From the NCBI GenBank assembly GCA_964637575.1, contig CAZWVU010000005.1:1-55453 (forward strand): DNA of 55,453 nucleotides, given 5' to 3'. Origin of the DNA: an uncultured Candidatus Saccharibacteria bacterium (lineage in GTDB: Bacteria; Patescibacteriota; Minisyncoccia; UBA6257; WO2-44-18). Below, one piece after another: positions 8,249 to 8,525 of this stretch; the first letter of the stretch is position 1, and each line of letters opens with the position of its first letter. The notes beneath the pieces were generated by a model that saw only the letters and a program-made list of their open reading frames with translations, was not told the origin of the DNA and did no database searches. Both the position numbers and the translations under genes were made by a program.

Positions 8249-8277
8249 TTGACTTATTTTTATTATTTGAGTATAGT
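8249..8277 (+). promoter_or_regulatory. sigma70-type promoter
   Basis: TTGACT, 17-nt spacer, TATAGT. Confidence 0.55.
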
Positions 8278-8278
8278 G

Positions 8279-8525
8279 TGGCGGTAGTAGCACCTTCAAT
8301 AAAGCTGCCTCCGGGCAGCTCCCTAGTCAGAATTTCATACAAAACGCGGCTTATTCAGTCATTTCAGTTTTTGAGTTACAGGAAGCGTCAGTAGTTTGTA
8401 TGACCGCCACATTCTCGTAAAGAAAGAGTTAGTGTGAGTAGGATTGTGGCTAGGGAGCTGCTGAGACGGTAGCTGGTTGGGAATCTTCCAATCAAGGATG
8501 ACCATTATTTTATGGAGGCAATCCT
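8279..8525 (+). promoter_or_regulatory. long structured 5' leader (riboswitch or attenuator candidate)
   Basis: Nested stems 8279-8285/8403-8409 and 8336-8343/8395-8402, plus hairpin 8303-8320. Competing 12-bp pairing 8315-8326/8450-8461. AGGATTG 8440-8446 pairs with CAATCCT 8519-8525 next to the SD/ATG. Confidence 0.45.

What the first reader, a model, noticed from the sequence alone, without database searches (positions are those of the whole stretch)
8249..8525. 240-nt structured leader with mutually exclusive pairings upstream of a 65-aa two-TM protein: riboswitch or attenuator candidate
A good promoter (TTGACT-17-TATAGT) places the transcription start near 8284, about 240 nt upstream of ATG 8526.

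The leader folds into a nested domain:
- P1 at 8279-8285/8403-8409.
- A hairpin at 8303-8309/8314-8320.
- P2 at 8336-8343/8395-8402.

The 3' arm of the hairpin (8315-8326) can instead form a 12-bp helix with 8450-8461. Separately, AGGATTG (8440-8446) can pair with CAATCCT (8519-8525), which abuts the SD GGAGG and the start codon. Alternative helices that gate SD access are typical of riboswitches. The downstream gene is a tiny membrane protein, possibly a transporter subunit or stress peptide. I do not recognise the fold as any known riboswitch class.
Basis: seen in the sequence. Interest (0 to 1): 0.6.

Follow-up and report, generated by a model that had tools for sequence, protein, structure and literature searches.

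The report
Structured leader RNA before small ORF
The flagged stretch is a real, strongly folded RNA of about 210 bases with its own promoter, from an undescribed family in tiny groundwater bacteria (Patescibacteria); here it leads into a 65-residue membrane-protein gene, but two sister species keep it without any gene behind it, and nothing shows it to be a riboswitch.

Summary
The promoter TTGACT-17-TATAGT, the UCCG hairpin, helix P2 and the 12-bp long-range helix are present, and the RNA folds far better than shuffles (z -5.3). The proposed SD gate (8440-8446/8519-8525) occurs only in this genome.

The RNA matches no Rfam family. I found four further distinct homologs (two GTDB species of the genus, one NCBI contig, one JGI metagenome contig), always downstream of the same cupredoxin/DUF5667 gene. 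Core identity is 77-87%, against 46-57% at alaS third codon positions.

What follows the RNA varies:
- a two-TM ORF of 64-65 aa in two genomes;
- an unrelated 81-aa ORF in one;
- only a terminator, then alaS, in two.

A shared 3' module (GCUGCYGAGACGGYRGCY, a hairpin, then an SD-burying hairpin) recurs before other orphan ORFs in two more lineages. alaS carries its own -10 box 7 nt before its ATG.

Best reading: an autonomous structured RNA module, used here as a translation-limiting leader. Covariation is too thin to prove the fold, and no ligand or switch is shown.

The scan had noted this promoter before, as an "alaS-leader promoter", in another genome (e1-4462362).

The parts
8249..8277 (+). 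Sigma-70-type promoter TTGACT-17-TATAGT; inferred transcription start about 8283
   Evidence: Hexamers and spacing are conserved in G002, G003 and L036. Sequence conservation begins at about 8284.
8283..8302 (+). 5' tail, largely single-stranded, with the semi-conserved GUA(A)GUAGCAC
   Evidence: Alignments; folds.
8303..8333 (+). 5' strand of the ~30-bp closing helix. It contains the alternative UCCG hairpin (8303-8320) and a stretch invariant in all five homologs.
   Evidence: (I2).
8335..8403 (+). It holds the one compensatory pair, 8348/8389 (G-C against A-U).
8404..8442 (+). Arm 2: a variable hairpin, nearly deleted in L036 and carrying an extra 22-nt hairpin in G003
8443..8474 (+). 3' strand of the closing helix. 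It includes the motif GCUGCUGAGACGGUAGCU (8457-8474), shared with L036, L039, L044 and G024, which can instead form its own GAGAC-loop hairpin.
8475..8493 (+). Hairpin 2 (8 bp, loop AUC, no U-tract). It resembles hairpin 2 of G024. A terminator stands at the equivalent place in G002 and G003.
8495..8525 (+). Local hairpin that pairs the Shine-Dalgarno GGAGG (8514-8518). L036, L044 and G024 have SD-burying hairpins at the same place.
8526..8723 (+). 65-aa ORF with two hydrophobic segments; an orphan, probably a real gene
   Evidence: No homolog found in 5.8 billion proteins. L039 has a 64-aa ORF of the same layout at the same place. GC3 is 0.69, as in neighbouring genes.
8709..8738 (+). Intrinsic terminator that ends the unit
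8752..8757 (+). -10-like TATATT, 7 nt before the alaS ATG (8765): alaS's own leaderless-type promoter
   Evidence: Conserved in the genus and in other genera. TANNNT boxes peak genome-wide 6-8 nt before ATG.
8765..10477 (+). alaS (alanyl-tRNA synthetase), the next gene; not part of the RNA unit
   Evidence: Pfam tRNA-synt_2c, E 8e-107.

Best explanation
The stretch is the RNA part of a small, self-contained transcription unit (promoter 8249, terminator about 8738). The unit sits between a cupredoxin/DUF5667 gene and alaS.

Transcription from about 8283 gives a ~210-nt folded RNA made of:
- a short 5' tail;
- a ~30-bp closing helix;
- a very conserved arm and a variable arm, which together with the helix form a Y;
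- a second hairpin;
- a hairpin that buries the ribosome-binding site of a 65-aa two-TM ORF.

It belongs to an undescribed leader family of Patescibacteria whose 3' module precedes unrelated orphan ORFs.

Inferred mechanism: the leader keeps translation of its cargo ORF low by sequestering the SD, and probably also stabilises the transcript. The Y-shaped domain in addition works on its own, as a protein-binding or trans-acting RNA, because two species keep it intact without any ORF. It is not the leader of alaS, which starts from its own -10 box.

Shown: the RNA's conservation, its predicted stability, the variable cargo, and the existence of ORF-less copies. Inferred: the transcript ends, the SD control, and the independent role.
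For: - The promoter is conserved and the fold is far more stable than shuffles.
- There are five distinct homologs, all syntenic downstream of the cupredoxin gene.
- RNA core identity is 77-87%, against 46-57% at alaS third positions. This holds within the ORF-less pair G002/G003 too (0.867 against 0.573).
- G002 and G003 have the RNA, a strong terminator and then alaS, with no ORF.
- G000 and L039 have an SD plus a 64-65-aa two-TM ORF; L036 has an unrelated 81-aa ORF.
- L044 and G024 share GCUGCYGAGACGGYRGCY, hairpin 2 and an SD hairpin, in front of 115- and 145-aa orphan ORFs. Their SD stems differ between loci but still pair: CUCCUG/CAGGAG, UUCCCG/CGGGAG, CUCUCG/CGGGAG.
- The SD is paired in the predicted folds of G000, L036, L044 and G024.
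- alaS has TATATT or TATTAT 7 nt before its ATG throughout the genus, and similar boxes occur in other genera that lack the RNA. TANNNT boxes peak 6-8 nt before ATG genome-wide.
- Arm 2 gains and loses whole hairpins, as expected of a modular RNA.
Against: - There are no expression data, so the start, the end and co-transcription with the ORF are all inferred.
- Covariation is not informative: one compensatory pair, and 101 of 500 shuffles do as well. The fold therefore rests on energy and on the indel pattern.
- L039 has one broken pair in P2 and two in the sub-helix inside arm 1.
- L039 has no clear SD hairpin.
- G024's whole leader is not more stable than shuffles (z +0.63).
- The two two-TM ORFs show no sequence similarity, so their homology is unproven.
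- A purely trans-acting RNA, or a ligand-sensing one, fits the same data.
Confidence: 0.5

Rival explanations
1. It is a stand-alone small RNA gene, trans-acting or protein-binding. The fusion to small ORFs in some genomes is incidental read-through after cargo genes were inserted in front of its terminator.
For: - G002 and G003 carry a complete promoter-RNA-terminator unit with no ORF, still under purifying selection.
- The cargo ORFs are unrelated and are orphans.
- The most conserved parts are arm 1 and the closing helix, not the region next to the SD.
Against: - Five of the seven family loci run straight into an SD-led ORF with no terminator in between, and four of these have an SD-burying hairpin.
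- The module shared across families is the ORF-proximal one.
- No target or partner was identified.
Confidence: 0.25
2. It is a riboswitch of a new class. The Y-shaped domain binds a small molecule, and the switch between the extended helix and the twin-hairpin form controls the downstream gene.
For: - It is a large conserved structured domain in a 5' UTR, with variable downstream genes and variable platforms: a terminator in G002 and G003, SD hairpins elsewhere.
- Two near-isoenergetic global folds exist, 5.5-10 kcal/mol apart.
Against: - No Rfam class matches, even at E up to 10.
- The alternative fold does not change SD pairing in the models.
- The downstream genes share no functional theme and are orphans.
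- The interior domain is replaced wholesale in L044 and G024, while the closing helix is kept.
- Covariation is insignificant.
Confidence: 0.1
3. It is a regulatory leader of alaS: T-box-like, an AlaRS-binding operator, or a terminator-based attenuator.
For: The RNA lies upstream of alaS in G000, G002, G003, L039 and L044. In G002 and G003 its terminator ends about 20 nt before the alaS ATG.
Against: - There is no T-box match, no conserved UGGN bulge and no conserved leader peptide (sequences).
- The Trp_leader hit (29.4 bits against a cut-off of 41) is the ORF's terminator.
- alaS keeps a -10 box 7 nt before its ATG, with or without the RNA.
- In G000 and L039 an ORF and its terminator stand in between.
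- G024's copy is not near alaS.
- Most genera of the family have no such RNA before alaS.
Confidence: 0.05
4. It is the structured, translationally inert 5' UTR of a type I toxin-like gene, with the small hydrophobic peptide as toxin.
For: G000 and L039 have small two-TM, fast-evolving orphan peptides behind a long structured leader that buries the SD. A weak antisense promoter-like site lies at 8536-8507.
Against: - The cargo is not hydrophobic in L036 (hydropathy profile), and the longer ORFs of L044 and G024 do not read as membrane peptides either (no profile was run for them).
- 64-65 aa with two TM segments is atypical for type I toxins.
- No conserved antisense RNA was found.
- The leader is retained where the ORF is gone.
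Confidence: 0.06
5. It is a copy of one of the mobile folded repeats (three-way-junction hairpin elements) that are common in Patescibacteria, with no function of its own.
For: It is a long hairpin with a three-way-junction tip that is present or absent between related genera. Such repeats abound in this genome, according to earlier notes of this scan. One unrelated hairpin repeat lies just upstream at 8151-8219.
Against: - It is single-copy in G000, G002 and G003.
- It is always at the same locus, with a conserved promoter, and under purifying selection.
- No look-alike was found in other windows of the scan.
Confidence: 0.04

Closest known systems
SD-sequestering 5' leaders (translational riboswitch platforms; ROSE and fourU RNA thermometers), cited from my own knowledge
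   Same: A long structured 5' UTR whose last hairpin pairs the Shine-Dalgarno sequence just before the start codon. The stems differ between loci but keep pairing.
   Different: No sensor function is shown, no known class matches, and the upstream domain is far larger. That domain also survives in species with no ORF behind it.
Riboswitch- or leader-derived small RNAs (Listeria SreA/SreB; Enterococcus/Listeria EutX/Rli55), cited from my own knowledge
   Same: A structured leader element ending in a terminator that acts as an RNA in its own right; the same element can lie in front of genes.
   Different: Those carry known aptamers (SAM, AdoCbl). Here no aptamer class, ligand or target is known.
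Type I toxin mRNA leaders (hok, tisB, zorO, aapA1), cited from my own knowledge
   Same: A long-range closing helix, an inert primary transcript with a buried SD, and small hydrophobic, fast-evolving peptides in two members.
   Different: The other members carry larger ORFs, one of them shown not to be hydrophobic. No antisense RNA was found, and the leader persists after the ORF is lost.
T-box leaders of aminoacyl-tRNA synthetase genes (Rfam RF00230)
   Same: About 200 nt of structured RNA with a terminator directly upstream of an aaRS gene (the G002/G003 arrangement).
   Different: No model match, no specifier or T-box sequence features, and alaS has its own promoter element. Other members are not next to an aaRS gene.
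Orphan structured small-RNA units and modular three-way-junction hairpin elements noted by this scan in Patescibacteria (e1-1024480, e1-871664)
   Same: Same phylum and the same general look: a promoter-to-terminator unit or a long hairpin with a three-armed tip, gained and lost between relatives.
   Different: No sequence similarity was found. This one is single-copy, fixed at one locus and promoter-driven. Those notes are unchecked leads.

Membership tests
Riboswitch (any class) | Match to a described aptamer class | tested here: not met
   There is no Rfam 15 hit in 8249-8525 at gathering score, and none for this stretch at E up to 10. Nothing meaningful turned up in four related loci either.
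Riboswitch (any class) | Conserved structure supported by covariation | tested here: inconclusive
   Of all cells, 91.9% are paired, against 29-45% for slid controls. But there is only one compensatory pair, and 101 of 500 shuffles reach it, from five sequences.
Riboswitch (any class) | Expression platform whose alternative pairing changes the terminator or SD access | tested here: not met
The alternative fold (UCCG and GAGAC hairpins) leaves the SD hairpin unchanged.
Riboswitch (any class) | Ligand binding | not testable with these tools
   This needs in-line or SHAPE probing.
T-box leader | Stem I specifier, T-box sequence with a UGGN bulge, and an antiterminator competing with the terminator | tested here: not met
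   RF00230 gives no hit. The candidate UGG after the helix is not conserved: G002 has UUGGAG, G003 UUUGAG and G000 CUGAGA.
Leader-peptide attenuator | Conserved short ORF rich in the regulating amino acid, upstream of a terminator | tested here: not met
   The only short ORFs in the RNA differ between species. The Trp_leader hit, 29.4 bits against a cut-off of 41, is the terminator at 8709-8731.
Stand-alone bacterial sRNA gene | Own promoter and own intrinsic terminator, with no ORF | tested here: inconclusive
   Met in G002 and G003. Not met in G000, L036 and L039, where an SD-led ORF follows with no terminator in between.
Type I toxin-antitoxin | Small hydrophobic toxin ORF in all members, plus an antisense RNA | tested here: not met
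   Two of the five cargo ORFs are two-TM peptides and L036's ORF is hydrophilic. The 115- and 145-aa ORFs of L044 and G024 do not read as membrane peptides, though no hydropathy profile was run for them. The only antisense signal is a 9-of-12 promoter-like site in G000.
6S RNA / SRP RNA (housekeeping RNAs of similar size) | Model match and hallmark architecture: a rod with a central bubble, or helix 8 with a GNRA loop | tested here: not met
   RF00013, RF00169 and RF01854 give no hit in G000, this locus included. The 5' end is unpaired and the fold is Y-shaped. The RNA was not found outside one genus by model R1.
Mobile structured repeat (MITE/REP-like) of Patescibacteria | Multiple dispersed copies per genome | tested here: not met
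   There is one copy in each of G000, G002 and G003.

The most novel reading that the evidence does not exclude
The locus represents a new, modular class of cis-regulatory RNA in Patescibacteria. It would have a conserved closing helix (5' YCYCGG(G)YAGC pairing with 3' GCUGCYGAGAC) plus an SD hairpin as a common chassis, and exchangeable sensor domains plugged into it. The genus-specific Y domain would respond to a ligand or protein, and it would be retained as a terminated regulatory RNA where the cargo gene was lost.
Probability: 0.15. Interest if true: 0.7.

Novelty: new member of a known kind. Interest (0 to 1): 0.42.

Why it matters
Patescibacteria/CPR genomes are tiny, and almost none of their regulatory RNA is described. 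This locus is a compact, promoter-driven, strongly folded RNA kept under clear purifying selection, more conserved than the essential gene next to it. It is reused in front of different orphan genes and also kept alone. That makes it a concrete candidate for studying how these organisms control or exploit small accessory genes. The evidence base is small: seven loci, no expression data and no proven covariation. For now it is a good lead rather than a discovery.

Tried and rejected
- **Rfam.** I searched the whole window at gathering score, 8100-8800 at E up to 10, and five related loci at E up to 0.5. The only hits were terminator-driven noise: Trp_leader at 29.4 bits against a cut-off of 41, and BSnc120 at 27 against 114.
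- **Model R1.** Built from three sequences, it found nothing outside the genus in 21 family genomes or 151 order genomes. It also found nothing in five contigs of the next-closest AlaRS relatives.
- **Metagenome scan** for a 20-mer of the closing helix: one contig, L036.
- **Genome-collection scan** for an arm-1 pattern: only two records, taken to be the two known relatives.
- **Viral collections.** The arm-1 pattern gave no hit. The two 3'-module patterns gave 4 and 1 hits, which on inspection lack the rest of the module and lie in coding-like sequence, so I treat them as chance. BLAST against phage records gave no match.
- **Sequencing runs.** Four groundwater DNA runs of one study hold the stretch and no RNA holder is listed, so expression could not be examined.
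- **SRP RNA in disguise.** I considered this because RF00169 finds no SRP RNA in 21 of 21 family genomes. I rejected it on architecture, on genus-restricted distribution and on the lack of any weak Rfam hit.
- **SRP candidate hairpin.** A regex hunt for helix-8 motifs gave one hairpin, at about C2:4015-4050. Rfam does not recognise it, and I left it open.
- **tRNA-Ala acceptor-stem mimicry.** The GGGAGCU/AGCUCCC helix has no G-U pair at the equivalent of G3-U70, so I dropped the idea (read from the sequence; the tRNA comparison is from my own knowledge).
- **Homology of the 65-aa and 64-aa ORFs.** BLASTP finds no alignment. Only the hydrophobic layout is shared.
- **Contigs without DNA.** Three relatives' contigs (P0004, P0007, P0043) were listed without DNA.
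- **G001.** In this species of the genus, alaS starts at a contig end, so whether the RNA is present there is unknown.

Full report
**What is in the sequence**

The window comes from a 781-kb, 97%-complete genome of the Patescibacteria/CPR type. The runs that hold this stretch are groundwater metagenomes.

The flagged stretch lies between a 560-aa DUF5667/cupredoxin protein gene (6440-8122) and alaS (8765-10477). It contains:
- a near-consensus promoter, TTGACT-17-TATAGT (8249-8277);
- then a region that folds much better than shuffled sequence (z -5.28, 0 of 200 shuffles).

The only terminator-like site is at 8709-8731, after the 65-aa ORF 8526-8723. RNA and ORF therefore most likely form one transcript here.

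The UCCG hairpin (8303-8309/8314-8320), P2 (8335-8343/8395-8403) and the 12-bp helix (8315-8326/8450-8461) are all present.

The 12-bp helix is the core of a longer closing helix, 8303-8333 with 8443-8474. The predicted fold has these parts:
- a 20-nt 5' tail;
- the closing helix;
- arm 1 (8335-8403);
- arm 2 (8404-8442);
- hairpin 2 (8475-8493);
- a hairpin at 8495-8525 that pairs the SD GGAGG (8514-8518).

P1 (8279-8285/8403-8409) is complementary in this sequence. But its 5' arm lies between the -10 box and the point where conservation starts, and the complement is absent in G002, G003 and L036.

The hairpin and the long helix really do exclude each other. Forcing the hairpin gives a twin-hairpin form only 5.5-10.2 kcal/mol above the minimum. 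The SD hairpin forms in both states, so this alternative does not gate the SD.

**Relatives**

BLAST and a covariance model found the RNA in two of the three other GTDB species of the genus, G002 and G003. In the third, G001, alaS starts at a contig end, so its state is unknown.

A metagenome scan added L036. Look-ups through the neighbouring protein added L039, and also L040, whose RNA reads the same as G003's over its whole length. All of these lie downstream of the orthologous cupredoxin gene.

The model found nothing in the other 10 genera of the family or in 151 genomes of the order. In those other genera alaS follows the upstream gene directly or after a terminator.

**Selection**

RNA core identity is 77-87% between species whose alaS third codon positions are 46-57% identical. 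The core is also more conserved than alaS taken over all positions (68-81%). Conservation starts at the inferred transcription start and fades after the closing helix.

**Structure evidence**

All five RNAs fold with z between -5.3 and -7.9.
- Arm 2 behaves as a module: it is almost deleted in L036 and carries an extra 22-nt hairpin in G003.
- The changes in the helices are mostly one-sided and wobble-compatible.
- There is one compensatory pair, 8348/8389.
- L039 has one broken pair in P2 and two in the sub-helix inside arm 1.
- The formal count is not significant: 101 of 500 shuffles do as well.

The fold is therefore likely but not proven.

**What follows the RNA**

| Locus | What follows the RNA |
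|---|---|
| G002, G003 | a strong terminator, then the alaS ATG about 20 nt later; no ORF |
| G000 | an SD-led two-TM ORF of 65 aa |
| L039 | an SD-led two-TM ORF of 64 aa |
| L036 | an unrelated, hydrophilic 81-aa ORF |

On the two-TM ORFs:
- They share layout but no detectable sequence similarity.
- The 65-aa ORF has no homolog among 5.8 billion proteins.
- It shows codon-position GC like real genes, and none of the cargo ORFs has a reliable Pfam or PHROG match.

By AlaRS, G000 groups with L039 and G002 with G003. ORF-bearing and ORF-less forms thus mark two clades. Within the ORF-less clade the RNA is still under purifying selection (0.867 against 0.573).

**A wider family**

While fetching alaS neighbourhoods I found L044, from another genus and also upstream of alaS. 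G024, from another family of the order, has a copy next to uvrA. Both have:
- a near-consensus promoter;
- a structured leader;
- the motif GCUGCYGAGACGGYRGCY as the 3' strand of a long closing helix;
- a second hairpin;
- an SD hairpin of the form CAACUYYYGUGACRGGAGG;
- an orphan ORF of 115 or 145 aa.

L036 has the same SD hairpin. G000 shares the motif and hairpin 2. The domain enclosed by the closing helix differs completely between lineages.

The motif is rare. With up to one mismatch, the only convincing hits in 401 genomes of the order were G000 and G024, and the reversed control pattern gave two hits of its own.

**alaS is not the regulated gene**

A -10-like hexamer sits 7 nt before the alaS ATG in all genus members, and similar boxes occur in several genera that lack the RNA. 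Genome-wide, TANNNT boxes peak 6-8 nt before ATG, at 29-37 counts against about 11. No T-box or leader-peptide features are present.

**Interpretation**

The conserved unit is the RNA, not the ORF. It is most simply read as an autonomous structured RNA module. In most family members it serves as a leader that holds the SD of a variable cargo ORF in a hairpin. It also has a role of its own, since it is maintained where the cargo is gone.

Rivals, in order of weight:
- a purely stand-alone sRNA;
- a new riboswitch;
- a type I toxin leader;
- an alaS leader;
- a mobile repeat. The last is disfavoured because the RNA is single-copy and fixed at one locus.

No expression data could be obtained.

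Noticed in passing
whole genome G000 and 20 genomes of its family: No SRP RNA is detected by Rfam RF00169 in 21 of 21 family genomes. RF01854 and 6S (RF00013) give nothing in G000, although the same search rings for RF00169 in 13 of 14 control genomes. Either the SRP RNA of this lineage is too divergent or too short for the models, or the first-look filter misses it.
   Followed up: partly
G000 contig C2, about 4015-4050 (L041 316-351): A 10-bp hairpin, GUGUAGGCGG/CCGCCUGCAC, lies downstream of an AT-rich stretch. Its 16-nt loop contains GCGAGGAAGCAG, reminiscent of SRP helix 8. Rfam does not recognise it.
   Followed up: partly
genome-wide; alaS -10 box at window 8752-8757: TANNNT hexamers peak 6-8 nt upstream of the first ATG of long ORFs: 36, 37 and 29 counts against a background of about 11. 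About 109 of 648 ORFs are affected, roughly as many as have an SD-like 4-mer (115). This suggests widespread leaderless transcription.
   Followed up: partly
window 8151-8219: A 28-bp-arm hairpin lies directly upstream of the RNA's promoter (I1). Earlier notes of this scan call it one copy of a ~30-copy hairpin repeat. G003/L040 and L039 instead have a small minus-strand ORF at this place (56 and 112 aa), and G002 aligns with G003 over it.
   Followed up: no
G000 C7:29340-29400 and C8:9260-9320: Two look-alike stretches, TAGCTCAGTGGGTCGAGG...GCCGAGACGG and TAGCTTAGTGGGTCGAGG...GCCGAGACGG, contain a tRNA D-arm-like sequence. They lie about 110-135 nt upstream of tRNA-Phe and tRNA-Lys.
   Followed up: no
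Logan contig of P0043 (no DNA available): In the closest AlaRS relative (80% identity), a 65-aa and a 105-aa ORF sit upstream of alaS. A WGR-domain gene replaces the cupredoxin gene, and a ~590-nt gap could hold the RNA.
   Followed up: no
G002:C13 (L031/L034) and G006:C28 (L032/L033): The AlaRS match is split into two pieces about 40-70 nt apart, in frames that stay open. G002's AlaRS is recorded as 662 aa. This could be an in-frame insertion in alaS.
   Followed up: no
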